NCBI GenBank assembly: GCA_964430735.1
Contig: CAYSFB010000012.1
Coordinates: forward strand, 1 to 63,145
From: an uncultured Planctomycetia bacterium
Lineage (GTDB): Bacteria > Omnitrophota > Gorgyraeia > 2-02-FULL-51-18 > JAGOUK01
Length of the DNA: 63,145 bases
Reading direction: 5' to 3'
Shown here: in pieces, positions 55,778 through 60,872 of the stretch
Layout of the letters: each line of letters starts with the position of its first letter
How positions within the stretch are numbered: position 1 is the stretch's first letter
Made by a program: the position numbers and the translations under genes
The notes under the pieces: model-generated
Database searches by the model: none
The model's input: only the letters and a program-made list of their open reading frames with translations
What the model was told of the DNA's origin: nothing

Positions 55778-57229
55778 CTACTTGGACCGGGTACCGAACT
55801 TCTTCTGGAGCGAACCGATCATATAGAAGTCGCGGGGATCCTGGTCGTCGTAGTCCCCGTTGATGATCGCGTCCACGTCGTCCACGCTCTCCGCGGGCGG
55901 AACGTATTCGCCGGGCTTGCCGGTGAAGATTTCCGCGACGAAGAAGGGCTGGGTGAAGTAGTTTTGAAGCTTGAGACCCCGGAAATAAGTGATGCGGTCG
56001 GTCGTCGACAATTCTTCGACGCCGATGATCGCCACGATCTTTTTAAGATCCTGAAGTTTGGTCAGAATTTTTCTCGCTTCGACGGCAACGTTGAAGTGGC
56101 GCTGGCCCACGATCGACGTATCGAGATTCGCACAGGAGCTCTTCAAAATGTCGATGGCCGGATAAAGACCTCTTTGCACCATGTCGCGTGACAGCGACAT
56201 AACTCCGTCCAGGTAGCTGTAGATCGCGACCACCGCCGGGTCCGTGTAGTCGTCGGCCGGAACGTACACGGCCTGGAACGACGTGATCGACCCGCCGTTT
56301 TCCGTGGAACGGATGCGCTCCTGAACTTCCGACACTTCCGAGGCCAGCGTCGGTTGATATCCCGTTTCGGAAGGCACGCGGCCCAGCAGCGTCGACACTT
56401 CCTGGCCGCCCTGAACGAACCGGAAAATATTATCGGCGAACAGCAGAACGTCCTTATTCTGGTTCTGGATGTATTCCGCGAGCGTAAGACCCGCGAACAC
56501 GACTTCGCGCCGGGCGCCCGGCGGCTGGTCCATCTGACCAAACGCCATCATGACGCGGTGCAGCAACTTGGCTTCTTCCAATTCCTTGAACAGATCGAAC
56601 CCTTCGCGCAGACGCTCGCCGATTCCGGCGAACACGCAGGCGCCGGAACGCTGCTTAACGATGTTGTTGATGAGCTCGAGAATGACGACGGTCTTTCCGC
56701 ACGCGGCGCCGCCGAGAACCCCGGTTTTGGATCCCTTCACGAGCGGGAAGAACAGGTCGACCATCTTGATGCCGGTGTCCATGACTTCGATTTCGCCGCC
56801 GGCGCGGTCCGTTTTGACCGGATAGGCGGTCTTGAGCGTGCGGATGTCCTTGAGCTCGCCGACGATCGGCGCGCCCTCGTCGATCATCTCACCCATGGCA
56901 TTCATGATGCGGCCGAAGCATTCGTCGCTCACCGGCACCTGGATCTTCTTGTTGTAGCACCACGCTTTGGAATTACGCTGCAAATTCATGGTTTCGTGCA
57001 TCGAAATACAGCGGGCGATCGTTCCCGGCATGTGCTCCGCGACCATCAAAAGGACGTTTTTGCCGGCGAAGGTCTTGGTTTGAATCGCGTAGTCAATGCC
57101 CGGGAGGTCCTTTTCCGATGCAAACTTCACGTCGACCACCGGCCCCTGAACGCTGATGATCCGGCCTTCCATGTACCGTTCGGCCGTTTCGTCCGTCTTT
57201 ACCTTTAATGCGGGGTCAGGTTGCGTCAT
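55778..57229 (-). CDS. atpD: F1-ATPase beta-subunit homologue (divergent)
   Basis: [25 protein letters not shown] (P-loop; canonical GGAGVGKT). [11 protein letters not shown] (catalytic Glu context). [47 protein letters not shown]. The DELSEED position reads VEELSTTD. Confidence 0.9.
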
Positions 57230-57241
57230 GGTGAAGTCCTC

Positions 57242-58099
57242 TTAGGCGGGCGCGTTGACCATCATCGCAGTCACCGTCTCGCGGAGACTGGCGTCGATCA
57301 ACTCGCGGCGAGTTTTGACGAACAGCAATTTGAGTTTTTTCTCGAGCTCGTCCAGGTTCTGCAAGCTGCCGTCCAGCTGCATGGCCTGTGCGGCATACTC
57401 GCTGAGCTTGTTGTCCTGGAAGAGGGCGATCAGTTTATAGATGATCCAGATTTCCGACAGGTATTCCATGATCGCGTCGATGTGGGTTTCCTGACAGAAC
57501 AATTCGTCCTTATCGGGCCGGGTGTCTTCGTTTTTTGGATAAACGTCGTGGGCCGGAAGCAGCGTGACCGCGCGGATTTCCTGGGTTGACAACGACACCG
57601 GATCGGCGTAAACCGCGATCACTTTTCCGAACTCCTTTTCCCTGACTTTTTGCGTCACAAAATCTTTGATCTGCGTCGCGACCTCGTGCATGTTCTTGTC
57701 CCGGAATCCTGGAAAAATGGTGTATGGGACACGCTCCTGCTTTAACCGCCCGATCATGCGCGGACCGGTGATCACAAAATGGCAGGGGCGGTTCTCGACT
57801 TTTTCGCGGGCGACCTTGATGACCTTGTTGTTCAATCCCGCCATGAACGACTCGTTGGATGTGATCGCGATCATGCAGATCACCCCCGAATCGGGCTGGA
57901 CGAATGAACTTTTTGTCTTGGAGTGGTCCGCCAGCTGGAAAAAAGTGTTGAACGATGTCGTAAAACGGTCGAAACGCTTTTCGCGCTTCTTTTTTACCTC
58001 AACGAACGACGACATGGCGATGCCCTTCATCGTCCCCATGATCTGCTTCATGTTGGACGCTACGAACCGCTCATTGGCGACGACCGGCAGTGTGGGCAT
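57242..58099 (-). CDS. atpG: F1-ATPase gamma-subunit homologue (divergent)
   Basis: N-terminus MKQIMGTMKGIAMSSFVEVKK (cf. ITKAMEMVAASKMRK). C-terminus LSEYAAQAMQLDGSLQNLDELEKKLKLLFVKTRRELIDASLRETVTAMMV (cf. SEQAARMVAM..A..N...L...L.L.YNKARQAAIT.EL.EIV). Confidence 0.75.
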   Translation of the reverse strand: MPTLPVVANERFVASNMKQIMGTMKGIAMSSFVEVKKKREKRFDRFTTSFNTFFQLADHSKTKSSFVQPDSGVICMIAITSNESFMAGLNNKVIKVAREKVENRPCHFVITGPRMIGRLKQERVPYTIFPGFRDKNMHEVATQIKDFVTQKVREKEFGKVIAVYADPVSLSTQEIRAVTLLPAHDVYPKNEDTRPDKDELFCQETHIDAIMEYLSEIWIIYKLIALFQDNKLSEYAAQAMQLDGSLQNLDELEKKLKLLFVKTRRELIDASLRETVTAMMVNAPA

Positions 58100-58128
58100 T
58101 CAGCGCCTTTGGTTAAACGTCCGGAGCC

Positions 58129-59106: not shown

Positions 59107-59116
59107 AAAAACCCGG

Positions 59117-59374
59117 CTATCCGGCCGCCGGTTCGTCGGACTCGAACTCTTCGGCGAGTATCAGACACTTGTTGTCATTGAAGGCTACGATCCCCGCCTT
59201 GACCGGAATCGCAATCTTGTTGTTAATGATGATGTCTCCCGCGCGCAACAGCCCCAGCGTCTTCGAATGGAAGCTCATAAGCTCGTATTCCGACTCGTCC
59301 CCGTCGATCAGCACCCGCTCCACCGCGTCCTCAAATATAACCCGCTTGGGAGTCACGATCGTCAGGTCAAACAC
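59117..59374 (-). CDS. atpC: F1-ATPase epsilon-subunit homologue, beta-sandwich domain only
   Basis: 85 aa: MFDLTIVTPKRVIFEDAVERVLIDGDESEYELMSFHSKTLGLLRAGDIII...VKAGIVAFNDNKCLILAEE matches the epsilon N-terminal domain pattern. The C-terminal helical hairpin is absent. Confidence 0.75.
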   Translation of the reverse strand: MFDLTIVTPKRVIFEDAVERVLIDGDESEYELMSFHSKTLGLLRAGDIIINNKIAIPVKAGIVAFNDNKCLILAEEFESDEPAAG

Positions 59375-59375
59375 G

Positions 59376-60872
59376 TCAGGCCCCGCTTTTTGCCGGCGCG
59401 GGCGCGGCGGCTTTTTCTTCGGTCGAAATGAAGCGGGTCAGGTAATTCCGAAGATGCGTTTCGATGCCTTCCTTGATCTTGTCGGTGAGCTTCCGCTCGG
59501 TTCGAATCGTGCGCAGAAGATCTCCCGCGTTCTCCCTCAAGTATCCGGAGATATCGCGCTTGAACTCCCGGACCTGATCCATATTCAAAGGCATCAGCAT
59601 CTTGTTGTTGTGCGCGTAGTAAATGAAGATCTGCTCTTCCTGCGGAACCGGATTATCCTTGTCCTGGGTGATGAGTTCGACGAAGATTGAACCGAATTTG
59701 AGCTGATCCTGAACCGATTTGGAAATATCGCTCGACAGTTTGGTGGATTCGACCAGCTCGCGGTATTGAAGATAGTCGAGGCGGTAGGTCTTGGTCATCG
59801 CCTTCATGATCGACCACTGCACCTTCGTTCCGATGCGGGAAACGGAGAGCCCCAGGTCCAGCGCCGGCTTGAAGCCCTGCGCAAAAAGCTTGAGATCCAG
59901 ACAAATCTGGCCGTCGGTCATCGACACCAGGTTCGTGATGACGTAGCTGGTGATGTCGCCTTCGAGTGTTTCCATGAGCGGCAGGAAAGTCATCGACCCG
60001 CCGCCGCGCTTGGCGTCGAGCTGCGCGGCACGTTCGATCATCTGTGAATGGAGATAAAAAATATCGCCCGGATACGCGTTGCGTCCCGGGGGGCGGCCGA
60101 GGAGAAGCGACAGCTCGCGGTACGCCCAAGCATGTTTCGAGAAATCGTCGAACACGACAAAAACGTCCTTGCCGCGATACATGAAGTATTCGCCGAGCGA
60201 GCAGGCGACATACGGCGCGAGGTACTGCTCACCCTGCGAAGCGGATGCGCCGGCGGAAAGAATGATGGTGTAATCCAGGCAGCCGTGACGGTTGAAAAGT
60301 GCCGAAACGCGCTTGAGGGACATCTCGGCTTTTCCGATGTCGACGTAGATGCAAACGACATCCTTGCCCTTCTGATTGATGATCGTGTCCGTGCCGATGG
60401 TTGTCTTACCGCTCATACGATCTCCCGTGAGCAGCTCGCGCTGGCCGCATCCCAGGGGAATCATGGAATCGATGATCTTAATGCCGGTTTCGACCGAGCG
60501 CTCGAGGGGTCCGCGGGACATGATCGGAGGCGAGTCGCGGAAAATCGGATAATGATCGTCCGCCTTGACCGGCCCCTTGCCGTCGCGCGGTTCGCCGAGC
60601 GCCGTGGTGATACGGCCGATAAAATTACTTCCGACGGGGGTCGTGAAAGGTTCAAGCGTCGTTGCAACGCGGTCGCCTGCGCCAATGGCTCCGCGCTCTT
60701 TGAGAATCAGGACCTGAGCGTACTTTTCGGTGAAGCCGATCACCATGCCGCGTGACCCGCCGCCCAGGTCCACCAACTGTCCGTAAATGCAGTTCGCCAG
60801 ACCTTCGACCACGATCACGCATTGTTTTTTACTGACGACGGTTCCGAATTCTTTGTATTTAAAAAATGACAT
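59376..60872 (-). CDS. atpA: F1-ATPase alpha-subunit homologue (divergent)
   Basis: GQRELLTGDRMSGKTTIGTDTIINQKG (cf. GQRELIIGDRQTGKTA). YLAPYVACSLGEYFMYRGKDVFVVFDDFSKHAWAYRELSLLLGRPPGRNAYPGDIFYLHSQMIERAA. GGGSMTFLPLMETLEGDITSYVITNLVSMTDGQI. GLSVSRIG. Confidence 0.9.
   Translation of the reverse strand: MSFFKYKEFGTVVSKKQCVIVVEGLANCIYGQLVDLGGGSRGMVIGFTEKYAQVLILKERGAIGAGDRVATTLEPFTTPVGSNFIGRITTALGEPRDGKGPVKADDHYPIFRDSPPIMSRGPLERSVETGIKIIDSMIPLGCGQRELLTGDRMSGKTTIGTDTIINQKGKDVVCIYVDIGKAEMSLKRVSALFNRHGCLDYTIILSAGASASQGEQYLAPYVACSLGEYFMYRGKDVFVVFDDFSKHAWAYRELSLLLGRPPGRNAYPGDIFYLHSQMIERAAQLDAKRGGGSMTFLPLMETLEGDITSYVITNLVSMTDGQICLDLKLFAQGFKPALDLGLSVSRIGTKVQWSIMKAMTKTYRLDYLQYRELVESTKLSSDISKSVQDQLKFGSIFVELITQDKDNPVPQEEQIFIYYAHNNKMLMPLNMDQVREFKRDISGYLRENAGDLLRTIRTERKLTDKIKEGIETHLRNYLTRFISTEEKAAAPAPAKSGA

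What the first reader, a model, noticed from the sequence alone, without database searches (positions are those of the whole stretch)
55778..60872. Divergent F1Fo-like gene set with non-canonical order (alpha-epsilon-c-b/delta-gamma-beta) and no a subunit
All six products are recognisable by motif (see features), but the order differs from canonical F-type (a-c-b-delta-alpha-gamma-beta-epsilon) and from N-ATPase operons (beta-epsilon-Q-R-a-c-b-alpha-gamma). No ORF in this window has the 5-6-TM a-subunit architecture with the conserved Arg. Deviations in otherwise conserved sites: beta P-loop GGAACGKT (usually GGAGVGKT), beta DELSEED replaced by EELSTTD, alpha P-loop GDRMSGKT, and an 85-aa epsilon lacking the regulatory C-terminal helices. 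The catalytic beta GER Glu context is kept, so ATP hydrolysis is plausible.
Basis: partly seen in the sequence, partly recalled or inferred. Interest (0 to 1): 0.8.

Follow-up and report, generated by a model that had tools for sequence, protein, structure and literature searches.

The report
F-type ATPase motor without proton channel
An uncultured Omnitrophota bacterium carries a complete but divergent F-type ATPase gene set, with no proton-channel subunit and no proton-binding residue, inside a type II secretion/pilus operon; it is most likely an ATP-burning rotary motor for the cell envelope, not an ATP synthase, and this kind has been noticed in the phylum before but never dissected.

Summary
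On the minus strand, 55778-60872 encodes alpha, a short epsilon, a c subunit, a b/delta fusion, gamma and beta. Neither the window nor 84 related loci contain an a subunit.

- The set is the middle of one tightly packed operon. A conserved bitopic periplasmic protein ("p441") lies upstream. GspE-F-G, minor pseudopilins and GspK/L/M-like genes follow 25 nt after beta.
- The c subunit has Gln where every ion-translocating c ring has its essential Glu/Asp. Among 71 orthologues the count is 55 Glu, 11 Gln, 5 Met.
- The same arrangement recurs in Omnitrophota, Lentisphaerota, Kiritimatiellia and Verrucomicrobiota MAGs. GspE follows beta in 73 of 73 informative loci.

The alpha and beta proteins form their own clade (NJ bootstrap 97-100), apart from canonical F-ATPases and N-ATPases. 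All genes are under strong purifying selection.

Seymour et al. 2023 already reported "non-respiratory" F-type ATPase clusters next to type-4 pilus genes in Omnitrophota, so this is a further member of a published but mechanistically unexplored kind.

The best reading is an ATP-driven rotor with no ion path, whose work reaches the periplasm, probably through p441, together with the secretion/pilus machine.

The parts
62322..63145 (-). C-terminal part of a large repeat protein ('p267'). The reading frame stays open to the end of the window. It starts with 13-residue repeats of the type xxINW/FxDxQVxTD and continues as a helical C-terminal region.
   Evidence: The frame is open to base 63145. 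Homologues in L004, L068, L082 and L084 are 637 to more than 1295 aa. L082 has 29 copies of a 39-nt repeat. No Pfam or NCBIfam match.
60874..62199 (-). p441: signal peptide, two copies of a beta-sandwich plus helical bundle, then one C-terminal transmembrane helix (TTWKIIYGF...) and a short cytoplasmic tail. It is the conserved partner encoded immediately upstream of the ATPase genes.
   Evidence: Present upstream in 38 of 39 informative loci. No Pfam family. The family has 960 representatives at E<=1e-3. AF2 model has mean pLDDT 79 and no PDB fold match at E<=1e-3. The TM block, residues 401-420, is the most conserved part of the protein across phyla.
59376..60872 (-). F1-like alpha subunit. 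P-loop is GDRMSGKT and the Arg finger (SVSRIG) is kept. It lacks the N-terminal helix of about 20 residues that binds delta in ordinary enzymes.
59117..59374 (-). Epsilon subunit, N-terminal beta-sandwich only (85 aa).
   Evidence: PF02823 3.7e-11. Alignment with E. coli AtpC shows the C-terminal helices are absent in all orthologues.
58891..59106 (-). c subunit: a two-helix hairpin with an RNPS loop. It has Gln (FNQC) at the position of the essential ion-binding Glu.
   Evidence: Orthologues match PF00137. The family profile aligns its E/Q position with the Glu of solved c subunits. Among 71 orthologues the residue is E in 55, Q in 11 and M in 5. dN/dS is 0.036.
58129..58875 (-). b/delta fusion: N-terminal TM helix, a long charged helix, and a C-terminal OSCP-like domain. 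This is the presumed peripheral stalk.
   Evidence: OSCP 7.5e-12 and ATP-synt_B 0.0038. Best whole-length model is TIGR03321, the N-ATPase b subunit, at 1.5e-13, below its cutoff. It is 23% identical over 238 aa to the b subunit of the Picosynechococcus N-ATPase.
57242..58099 (-). Gamma subunit (central shaft).
   Evidence: PF00231 1.9e-27 over residues 15-278.
55778..57229 (-). F1-like catalytic beta subunit. Walker A is GGAACGKT. The catalytic GER Glu and the Walker B Asp are kept. DELSEED is replaced by EELSTTD.
54028..55752 (-). GspE/PilB-type secretion ATPase with an MshEN N-terminal domain. It starts 25 nt after beta.
   Evidence: PF00437 8.8e-128. TIGR02533 GspE 566 bits and PilB 555 bits, both below their cutoffs. 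GspE lies directly after beta in 73 of 73 informative loci.
52777..54024 (-). GspF/PilC-type platform protein.
   Evidence: PF00482 1.2e-55. TIGR02120 343 bits.
52345..52764 (-). Major pseudopilin GspG.
   Evidence: PF08334 3.4e-30. TIGR01710 144 bits, above its 89-bit cutoff.
51416..52370 (-). Two minor pseudopilin genes, at about 51978-52370 and 51416-51991, each with an N-terminal methylation motif.
   Evidence: PF07963 matches. Likely start codons located.
48261..51419 (-). GspK-like minor pseudopilin (50343-51419), a PilM/PilN fusion resembling GspL (48904-50361), and a GspM-like protein (48261-48899). This is the end of the operon.

Best explanation
This is an ATP-hydrolysing rotary motor of F-type ancestry, built into a type II secretion-like (type IV filament) operon. 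It is not an ATP synthase or an ion pump.

Shown by computation:
- It has a catalytically intact alpha3beta3-type head, a gamma-epsilon shaft, a genuine c subunit and a single b/delta stalk.
- No a subunit is encoded anywhere near it.
- In this organism the c subunit carries Gln at the ion-binding site.
- The regulatory epsilon helices and the alpha N-terminal helix that binds delta are absent.
- The genes are co-transcribed in layout with p441 and GspE/F/G/K/L/M, and the whole arrangement is conserved across four PVC-group lineages under purifying selection.

Inferred:
- ATP hydrolysis in beta turns gamma-epsilon and the c ring against the head held by b/delta.
- With no channel, the rotation moves no ions. 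It does mechanical work.
- That work reaches the periplasm through p441. Its strongly conserved single C-terminal TM helix would pack in or against the c ring, as the single-pass proteins Voa1/Ac45 sit inside V-ATPase c rings (my own knowledge, not tested here).
- The periplasmic output acts with the pseudopilus machine on the large repeat protein encoded upstream. The purpose would be surface attachment, movement or secretion.
For: Subunit identities.

Catalytic residues are kept in beta, and the Arg finger is kept in alpha.

No a subunit:
- Nothing in the window.
- Nothing in 1.42 Mb of the window plus 84 related loci with an a-subunit HMM (best E=1.8).
- No multi-TM ORF next to the cluster in 11 long loci.

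The c-ring carboxylate is dispensable: Q in the window, and E55/Q11/M5 in 71 orthologues, with losses in several separate lineages.

Operon layout: gaps of 2-30 nt from p441 to GspG.

Synteny:
- GspE follows beta in 73/73 loci and p441 lies upstream in 38/39.
- The same holds in further contigs and in 58 more loci.

Distinct clade:
- beta 100/100 and 98/100, alpha 97/100 in NJ bootstraps.
- beta is at most 46% identical to any canonical beta in the plasmid collection, against 54-58% to the linked homologues of other phyla.

Purifying selection: dN/dS 0.03-0.10.

The p441 TM helix is the best conserved part of that protein.

Precedent for F1-like ATPases that power extracytoplasmic proteins: Mycoplasma type 3 (PMC12994834) and type 2 (bioRxiv 10.1101/2024.06.11.597861).

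Prior report of this kind of locus: PMC10066038.
Against: - No biochemical or structural data exist for any member.
- 55 of 71 orthologues keep the c-ring Glu. The carboxylate may therefore still matter in most lineages.
- The whole genome could not be searched, so an a subunit encoded far away is not excluded. Alphaproteobacteria do split their atp operons, although there a, c and b stay together.
- Contact between p441 and the c ring or the stalk is pure inference. No multimer prediction was possible.
- How the b/delta stalk grips a head whose alpha subunits lack the usual docking helix is unexplained.
- What anchors the stator against the torque is unknown.
- My trees are NJ trees and contain no canonical F-ATPase from a PVC-group organism.
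- The p441 module also occurs at the end of a giant protein on a contig where no ATPase gene follows (L086).
Confidence: 0.55

Rival explanations
1. It is the organism's ordinary ATP synthase. The a subunit is simply encoded elsewhere, and the position next to secretion genes is incidental.
For: Alpha and beta pass the NCBIfam atpA/atpD equivalog cutoffs. Databases name the homologues 'F0F1 ATP synthase subunit beta'. Split atp operons exist: no a subunit was found in the Methylobacterium locus L094. Most orthologues keep the c-ring Glu.
Against: The window's c subunit has Gln at the essential carboxylate, and 16 of 71 orthologues lack it. c and b are present while a is missing in all 84 loci. 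GspE follows beta in 73/73 loci across four lineages. The proteins form a separate clade. Gamma, epsilon and b fall far below their equivalog cutoffs. Seymour et al. separate 'respiratory' from 'symbiotic' clades within the phylum.
Confidence: 0.06
2. It is an N-ATPase-type (alternate F1Fo) ion pump.
For: The b protein is long and delta-less, as in N-ATPases. Its best whole-length model is TIGR03321. It is 23% identical over 238 aa to an N-ATPase b subunit. The order eps-c-b-alpha-gamma-beta seen in some Omnitrophota resembles the N-ATPase order with Q, R and a removed.
Against: There is no a, atpQ or atpR. TIGR03305 and TIGR03324 score 442 and 453 bits against cutoffs of 752 and 750. In the trees the N-ATPases group with canonical enzymes, not with this clade. 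N-ATPase alphas keep the N-terminal helix that is missing here.
Confidence: 0.02
3. The head does not drive a rotating ring. It works like the FliI/FliH/FliJ export ATPase, as an unfoldase, chaperone-release or gate-activating ATPase for the secretion machine. The c protein would serve only as a membrane anchor.
For: FliH is the known homologue of b plus delta, and FliJ of gamma (established knowledge; bioRxiv 10.1101/2021.01.01.425057, listed). The cluster sits in a secretion operon. Beta scores 186 bits on the FliI/YscN model.
Against: Separate alpha and beta subunits, a full gamma, an epsilon and a true c subunit with the conserved RNPS loop that contacts gamma/epsilon are all kept under purifying selection. 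That is the full rotor set. FliI-type scores lie far below cutoff (186 against 379.5).
Confidence: 0.12
4. The motor serves only p441 and the upstream giant repeat protein, resetting or moving a surface protein as the Mycoplasma type 3 ATPase does for MIB-MIP. The secretion genes merely export that protein and do not form one machine with the ATPase.
For: The Mycoplasma F1-like X0 cluster includes a signal-peptide protein with C-terminal TM helices and lies next to its surface clients. Large, variable proteins precede p441 in many loci. The p441 module ends some giant proteins.
Against: The adjacency of beta and GspE is invariant (73/73, median gap 38 nt), whereas the upstream proteins vary. 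NCBIfam type 2/3 models all fall below cutoff, and p441 matches no MSC_062x family.
Confidence: 0.2

Closest known systems
'Symbiotic' / non-respiratory F-type ATPase clusters next to type-4a pilus genes in Omnitrophota (Seymour et al. 2023, Nat Microbiol, PMC10066038)
   Same: Same phylum: beta is 93% identical to an Omnitrophota MAG. The alpha clade is distinct in both cases. Co-location with type IV filament genes holds in both (57 of 66 contigs within 10 kb in the paper; 25 nt here).
   Different: The main text and the held supplement text, searched for these terms, give only an alpha phylogeny and co-location counts. The following were not found there:
- the missing a subunit;
- the c-ring Glu-to-Gln/Met changes;
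- the b/delta fusion;
- p441;
- the presence of the same locus in Lentisphaerota, Kiritimatiellia and Verrucomicrobiota.
The paper calls the neighbours T4aP. Here they score best as T2SS components.
Mycoplasma type 3 'F1-like X0' ATPase (MIB-MIP system) and type 2 G1-ATPase (gliding)
   Same: Both are F1-derived alpha/beta/gamma/epsilon sets that are not ATP synthases. Both are genetically tied to extracytoplasmic proteins. Both have an alpha without the N-terminal helix, and a partner protein with a signal peptide and a C-terminal TM anchor.
   Different: - Mycoplasma X0 has a 12-TM protein and no c or b/delta. Here a true c subunit and a b/delta stalk remain.
- All four NCBIfam type 2/3 models score below cutoff.
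- Beta is 36% identical to a type 3 beta, against 41-46% to canonical betas.
- The PDB G1 beta scores 323 bits, against 372-424 for canonical F1.
- The unrooted tree leaves a sister relationship open.
N-ATPase (alternate F1Fo, Dibrova et al. 2010)
   Same: A second, non-housekeeping F-type operon with non-canonical order. It has a long b subunit without a separate delta.
   Different: N-ATPases have a, AtpQ, AtpR and an ion-binding c subunit, and they pump ions. None of these applies here.
Canonical bacterial F1Fo ATP synthase
   Same: The fold and catalytic residues of alpha and beta, plus gamma, the epsilon N-domain and the c hairpin with its RNP loop.
   Different: There is no a subunit and no c carboxylate in this organism. 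b and delta are fused. Alpha is N-terminally truncated. The enzyme is 37% (alpha) and 43% (beta) identical to the E. coli proteins. It forms a separate clade.
V-ATPase c-ring lumen proteins Voa1 / ATP6AP1 (Ac45) / ATP6AP2
   Same: Topology only: a signal peptide, a large extracytoplasmic domain, one C-terminal TM helix and a short tail. This is what p441 has. The comparison rests on my own knowledge of published V-ATPase structures.
   Different: No sequence or fold similarity was found. Any association of p441 with the c ring is untested.

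Membership tests
Canonical F1Fo ATP synthase | Catalytic alpha/beta pair that reaches the curated atpA/atpD equivalog scores | tested here: met
   TIGR00962 scores 515.9 against a cutoff of 484.45. TIGR01039 scores 518.6 against 462.85.
Canonical F1Fo ATP synthase | An a subunit (ATP-synt_A, 5-6 TM, essential Arg) encoded with c and b | tested here: not met
   No match in the window. No match in 13,617 ORFs of the window plus 84 related loci with an a-subunit HMM, best E=1.8. 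The rest of the genome could not be searched.
Canonical F1Fo ATP synthase | A c subunit with the essential membrane-embedded Glu/Asp | tested here: not met
   The window has Gln (FNQC) at the position that aligns with the Glu of solved c subunits.
Canonical F1Fo ATP synthase | Separate b and delta, with delta docking on the alpha N-terminal helix | tested here: not met
   There is a single 248-aa b/delta fusion. Alpha starts at about position 23-26 of the atpA models, and the N-terminal helix is absent in all linked alphas.
Canonical F1Fo ATP synthase | Gamma, epsilon and b that reach their equivalog cutoffs | tested here: not met
   Gamma scores 67.7 against 194.45. Epsilon scores 40.2 against 67.25. 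TIGR01144 (b) scores 22.5 against 65.5.
N-ATPase (alternate F1Fo) | AtpQ and AtpR genes and an a subunit in the operon, in the order beta-eps-Q-R-a-c-b-alpha-gamma | tested here: not met
   The order is alpha-eps-c-b/delta-gamma-beta with gaps of 2-30 nt. No a subunit.
N-ATPase (alternate F1Fo) | NCBIfam exception models TIGR03305/03324/03321/03323 above cutoff | tested here: not met
   Scores are 441.9 against 752, 452.8 against 750.5, 51.1 against 224.7, and 28.8 against 282.35.
Mycoplasma type 2/3 F1-like ATPases | Alpha and beta that match the MSC_0619/MSC_0618 or MMOB1660/MMOB1670 models above cutoff | tested here: not met
   Scores are 281.7 against 520, 414.4 against 570, 369.3 against 600, and 401.8 against 850.
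Mycoplasma type 2/3 F1-like ATPases | The specific accessory proteins (MSC_0620/0623/0624 families) and absence of c and b/delta | tested here: not met
   p441 and p267 match no NCBIfam model. c and b/delta are present.
Mycoplasma type 2/3 F1-like ATPases | Common ancestry with the type 2/3 clade to the exclusion of canonical F-ATPases | tested here: inconclusive
   The NJ trees give a three-way split between the linked clade, canonical plus N-ATPases, and a long type 3 branch. Where the root lies decides the answer. Seymour et al. report that the clade clusters with types 2/3.
Omnitrophota 'symbiotic' F-ATPase / type IV filament loci (Seymour et al. 2023) | Omnitrophota origin | tested here: met
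   Identity of 91-93% to Omnitrophota MAG contigs across the whole operon.
Omnitrophota 'symbiotic' F-ATPase / type IV filament loci (Seymour et al. 2023) | Alpha outside the respiratory F-ATPase clade | tested here: met
   The linked alphas are monophyletic at 97/100, apart from the canonical and N-ATPase references. No 'respiratory' Omnitrophota alpha was available as a reference.
Omnitrophota 'symbiotic' F-ATPase / type IV filament loci (Seymour et al. 2023) | Co-location within 10 kb of type IV filament assembly genes | tested here: met
   GspE starts 25 nt after beta and is followed by GspF, G, K, L and M homologues.
Flagellar/T3SS ATPase complex (FliI/FliH/FliJ) | A homo-hexameric FliI/YscN-type ATPase above the family cutoff | tested here: not met
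   TIGR01026 scores 185.6 (beta) and 144.4 (alpha) against a cutoff of 379.5. Distinct alpha and beta genes are present.

The most novel reading that the evidence does not exclude
The F1-like head, the carboxylate-free c ring and the single-pass protein p441 form a new kind of envelope machine. In it, an ATP-driven rotor in the inner membrane turns or cranks a periplasmic shaft. That shaft is physically integrated with the GspE/F/L/M platform of a type II secretion-like pseudopilus. It would be the first case of an F-type rotor delivering torque to the periplasm rather than moving ions, and the first type IV filament system with a second, rotary motor.
Probability: 0.2. Interest if true: 0.9.

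Novelty: new member of a known kind. Interest (0 to 1): 0.65.

Why it matters
Every characterised F-type c ring works against an a subunit to move ions. Here a c ring is kept under strong purifying selection with no a subunit. In several lineages it also lacks its carboxylate. It is always fused into a secretion/pilus operon, across at least four PVC-group lineages and hundreds of MAG species.

That raises a direct, testable question: what does an F-type rotor do when it cannot translocate ions? It also extends to diderm, free-living or episymbiotic bacteria the idea, emerging from mycoplasmas, that F1-derived motors can power work outside the cytoplasm.

There is a practical consequence. Annotation pipelines name these genes "F0F1 ATP synthase". 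Metabolic reconstructions of Omnitrophota, Lentisphaerota and Kiritimatiellia MAGs may therefore wrongly infer chemiosmotic ATP synthesis from them.

Tried and rejected
- **Housekeeping synthase with a nearby a subunit.** Rejected after Pfam scans of the multi-TM ORFs, tblastn with E. coli AtpB and a purpose-built a-subunit HMM.
- **N-ATPase.** Rejected on gene content, model scores and tree position.
- **The 71-aa ORF is not a c subunit.** I considered this because it has no Pfam match. I rejected it because its orthologues and their profile match c subunits.
- **Fold of p441.** AF2 plus Foldseek against the PDB gave only generic beta-sandwich matches. Pfam scans of 14 family members gave nothing consistent.
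- **Promoter and terminator scans** of the operon were no better than shuffled sequence.
- **Secretin.** I looked in the window and downstream in relatives and found none in the regions checked. MORN-repeat or TPR proteins follow instead.
- **A cultured carrier of the locus.** A second genome scan returned only MAGs.
- **A second, canonical ATPase in the same genomes.** I could not test this, because no tool searches a single named genome.
- **Literature searches** beyond Seymour et al. 2023 found no paper describing this system.
- **Resources not used:** the last homologue search and the second structure job. b/delta and the repeat protein were already adequately placed by HMMs and synteny.

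Full report
**What is there.** The window is about 60% G+C. Its right-hand 15 kb is one minus-strand gene string with gaps of 2-30 nt. In transcription order it holds:
- the 3' part of a repeat-protein gene whose frame is still open at the window end (62322-63145);
- p441 (60874-62199);
- alpha, epsilon, c, b/delta, gamma and beta (55778-60872);
- 25 nt later, GspE, GspF and GspG, two minor pseudopilins, a GspK-like protein, a PilM/PilN fusion and a GspM-like protein (48261-55752).

**Subunit identities.** Pfam and NCBIfam confirm each ATPase subunit.
- Alpha and beta pass the curated atpA and atpD cutoffs.
- Gamma, epsilon and b/delta are recognisable but fall far below theirs.
- Epsilon is the beta-sandwich only.
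- The stalk is a single b/delta fusion.
- The 71-aa protein has no PF00137 match at E<=1. Nineteen of 20 syntenic orthologues do, and their profile aligns with solved c subunits.

**What is missing or altered.**
- No a subunit exists in the window. E. coli AtpB finds nothing by tblastn. The multi-TM ORFs with a Pfam match are MMPL, AcrB, STT3-like, ExbB and PEMT-like proteins. A 488-aa 7-TM ORF at 25-1491, on the other strand and 54 kb away, has no Pfam match.
- An HMM built from eight a subunits, both canonical and N-ATPase, finds nothing (best E=1.8) in 13,617 stop-to-stop ORFs from the window and 84 related loci, 1.42 Mb in all.
- The c subunit has Gln where the family profile aligns with the proton-binding Glu of yeast, chloroplast and bacterial c subunits. 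Among 71 orthologues the residue is Glu in 55, Gln in 11 and Met in 5, and the losses lie in several separate lineages.
- All linked alphas lack the roughly 20-residue N-terminal helix that binds delta. N-ATPase alphas keep it.
- The catalytic residues of beta and the Arg finger of alpha are intact.
- Comparisons with two close relatives give dN/dS of 0.03-0.10 for every gene, and 0.036 for the Gln-bearing c subunit. dS is near saturation, so these values are approximate.

**Relatives.**
- A scan of one genome per species returned 80 loci. The closest, at 91-93% beta identity, are Candidatus Omnitrophota MAGs. The rest are Omnitrophota, Lentisphaerota/Victivallales, Kiritimatiellia and Verrucomicrobiota MAGs.
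- All show p441, alpha (often a second alpha), eps, c, b/delta, gamma, beta, GspE, GspF and GspG in that order. Some Omnitrophota instead have eps-c-b/delta-alpha-gamma-beta.
- GspE directly follows beta in 73 of 73 loci that have enough downstream sequence, with a median gap of 38 nt. p441 is found upstream in 38 of 39.
- Two more Omnitrophota contigs, with pre-computed Pfam calls, show the same arrangement.
It added 58 loci with GspE after beta. Some of these are contigs already seen in the first scan. It also returned 12 canonical Patescibacteria operons.
- No long locus has a multi-TM ORF beside the cluster.

**Phylogenetic placement.** Reference operons came from records in the plasmid collection, several of them mislabelled chromosomes. 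They were E. coli, Neisseria, Methylobacterium, Bacillus, Subdoligranulum, Parabacteroides, Mesomycoplasma hyorhinis type 1, two N-ATPases and a Mycoplasmopsis type 3 cluster.
- In NJ trees with 100 bootstraps, the secretion-linked betas are monophyletic (100). They remain so (98) after adding divergent Omnitrophota members and four canonical Patescibacteria betas.
- The linked alphas, both paralogues included, are monophyletic at 97.
- N-ATPases group with the canonical enzymes.
- The type 3 sequence sits on a long branch. The unrooted topology neither supports nor excludes the sister relationship to Mycoplasma types 2/3 that Seymour et al. describe.
- By score, the proteins are closer to canonical F1 than to the mycoplasma types. 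All four NCBIfam type 2/3 models are below cutoff. Solved canonical betas score 372-424 bits, against 323 for the M. mobile G1 beta. Beta is 41-46% identical to canonical betas, against 36% to type 3.
- Caveat: I had no canonical F-ATPase from a PVC-group organism.

**The partner p441.**
- It has no Pfam or NCBIfam family.
- An exhaustive profile search found 960 cluster representatives at E<=1e-3. Some are the C-terminal ends of proteins of 1,851-3,748 aa.
- The AF2 model (mean pLDDT 79) shows a signal peptide, two copies of a beta-sandwich plus helical bundle, a linker and one C-terminal TM helix. No PDB structure matches at E<=1e-3.
- Across phyla, the start of the TM helix (TTWxIIY..L.FL) is the best conserved 20-residue block, at 0.77 mean column identity against 0.36-0.61 elsewhere. 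This suggests a specific contact inside the membrane.
- The helix has no mid-membrane Arg that could mimic the a subunit.
- The gene before p441 varies between lineages. In Omnitrophota it encodes a protein with long arrays of a 13-residue repeat, and assemblies usually break inside it.

**Literature.** Seymour et al. [quoted passage not shown] In the main text and the held supplement text I found no subunit-level analysis and no mention of other phyla. The 2026 study of the Mycoplasma type 3 'F1-like X0' ATPase shows that an F1-derived ATPase can be required for the action of surface proteins. Five further searches found nothing else on this system.

**Interpretation.**
- Shown: this is a conserved, selected, catalytically competent F-type rotor set. 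It has a c ring and a stalk but no ion path in this organism, and it is hard-wired into a type II secretion-like operon together with p441.
- Inferred: ATP hydrolysis spins gamma-epsilon and the c ring, and the work is taken up in the periplasm. The most plausible route is the p441 TM helix, by analogy with the single-pass proteins that sit inside V-ATPase c rings (my own knowledge). The motor would act with the pseudopilus machine on large surface proteins.
- Open points: why most lineages keep the c-ring Glu, how the stalk binds a head without the alpha N-terminal helix, what anchors the stator, and whether an a subunit is encoded elsewhere in the genome.

**Verdict.** The locus belongs to a kind already published for this phylum. 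It is therefore not new as a sighting, but the kind is functionally unexplored and its anatomy, worked out here, is unlike any characterised F-type ATPase.

Noticed in passing
window 62322-63145 (-); L082 1-2071; L084 1-2454; L004 192-2105; L068 33-3920: The gene upstream of p441 encodes a protein with long arrays of a 13-residue repeat (about AGINWSDxQVLSD, 39-nt period, 29 copies in L082) and a helical C-terminal region. It has no Pfam family. The window and most relatives' contigs end inside it, as expected if the repeats break assemblies. It may relate to the giant ORFs reported for Omnitrophota.
   Followed up: partly
L009-L061 and others, e.g. L016 6119-7609, L048 6132-7610: Lentisphaerota, Kiritimatiellia and Verrucomicrobiota loci carry two alpha paralogues. 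Forty of the 50 loci with enough upstream sequence have two. The second paralogue keeps the P-loop but has Ile in place of the Arg finger (SLSIIG). This suggests a head with mixed, partly inert interfaces.
   Followed up: partly
P0038, P0040, P0147, P0151, P0160; L086: The p441 module (beta-sandwich/helix repeats plus the TTW TM anchor) also forms the C-terminus of giant proteins of 1,851-3,748 aa. On the one contig examined (L086), the next gene begins with a signal-peptide-like segment and shows no similarity to alpha.
   Followed up: partly
L082 8690-10945; L084 9790-12033: In some Omnitrophota the GspE that follows beta is about 750 aa and carries a C-terminal PilZ domain in addition to the MshEN domain. 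This hints at c-di-GMP control of the machine. The window's GspE (574 aa) has only MshEN.
   Followed up: no
L027 18887-20143; L048 19893-21317; L064 19658-21100: A MORN-repeat protein of 420-480 aa closes the secretion operon in Kiritimatiellia and Lentisphaerota loci. Omnitrophota loci have a TPR protein there instead. No secretin gene was found in the operon regions examined.
   Followed up: partly
L084 6286-6531; L062 4235-4453 and 4522-4755: Some Omnitrophota loci have an extra small membrane-protein gene next to c. L084/L085 have an 81-aa ORF with no Pfam match. L062 has a second, divergent c-like copy.
   Followed up: no
window 44996-47566 (+); L082 17595-18690 (-): An STT3-type oligosaccharyltransferase-like gene lies on the opposite strand at the end of the secretion operon, both in the window and in a relative whose beta is 64% identical. 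This may be a conserved neighbour.
   Followed up: no
window 3726-5879 (-), 20465-22912 (-), 37657-42953 (-): Other envelope genes in the window: a ShlB/FhaC-type two-partner-secretion transporter with an unusual UVR motif; an 815-aa protein with six PKD domains; and an ExbB/TolQ, TPR (805 aa) and VWA protein string.
   Followed up: no
window 25-1491 (+): A 488-aa ORF with about seven predicted TM segments and coding-like GC3 has no Pfam match. It is too large and too far away to be an a subunit, but it remains unidentified.
   Followed up: partly
L093 (Parabacteroides distasonis NZ_OY725775.1): The ordinary Bacteroidota F-ATPase operon runs beta-eps-(hyp)-a-c-b-delta-alpha-gamma and has a 77-aa epsilon. 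A non-canonical order and a short epsilon therefore do not by themselves mark an unusual enzyme.
   Followed up: yes
search_dna_similar 'plasmids' hits H4, H5, H11, H12, H16, H20: Several records in the plasmid collection are whole chromosomes labelled as plasmids, for example the 5.5-Mb NZ_CP093325.1. Their atp operons are chromosomal. This was useful for references but should be kept in mind when reading plasmid counts.
   Followed up: no
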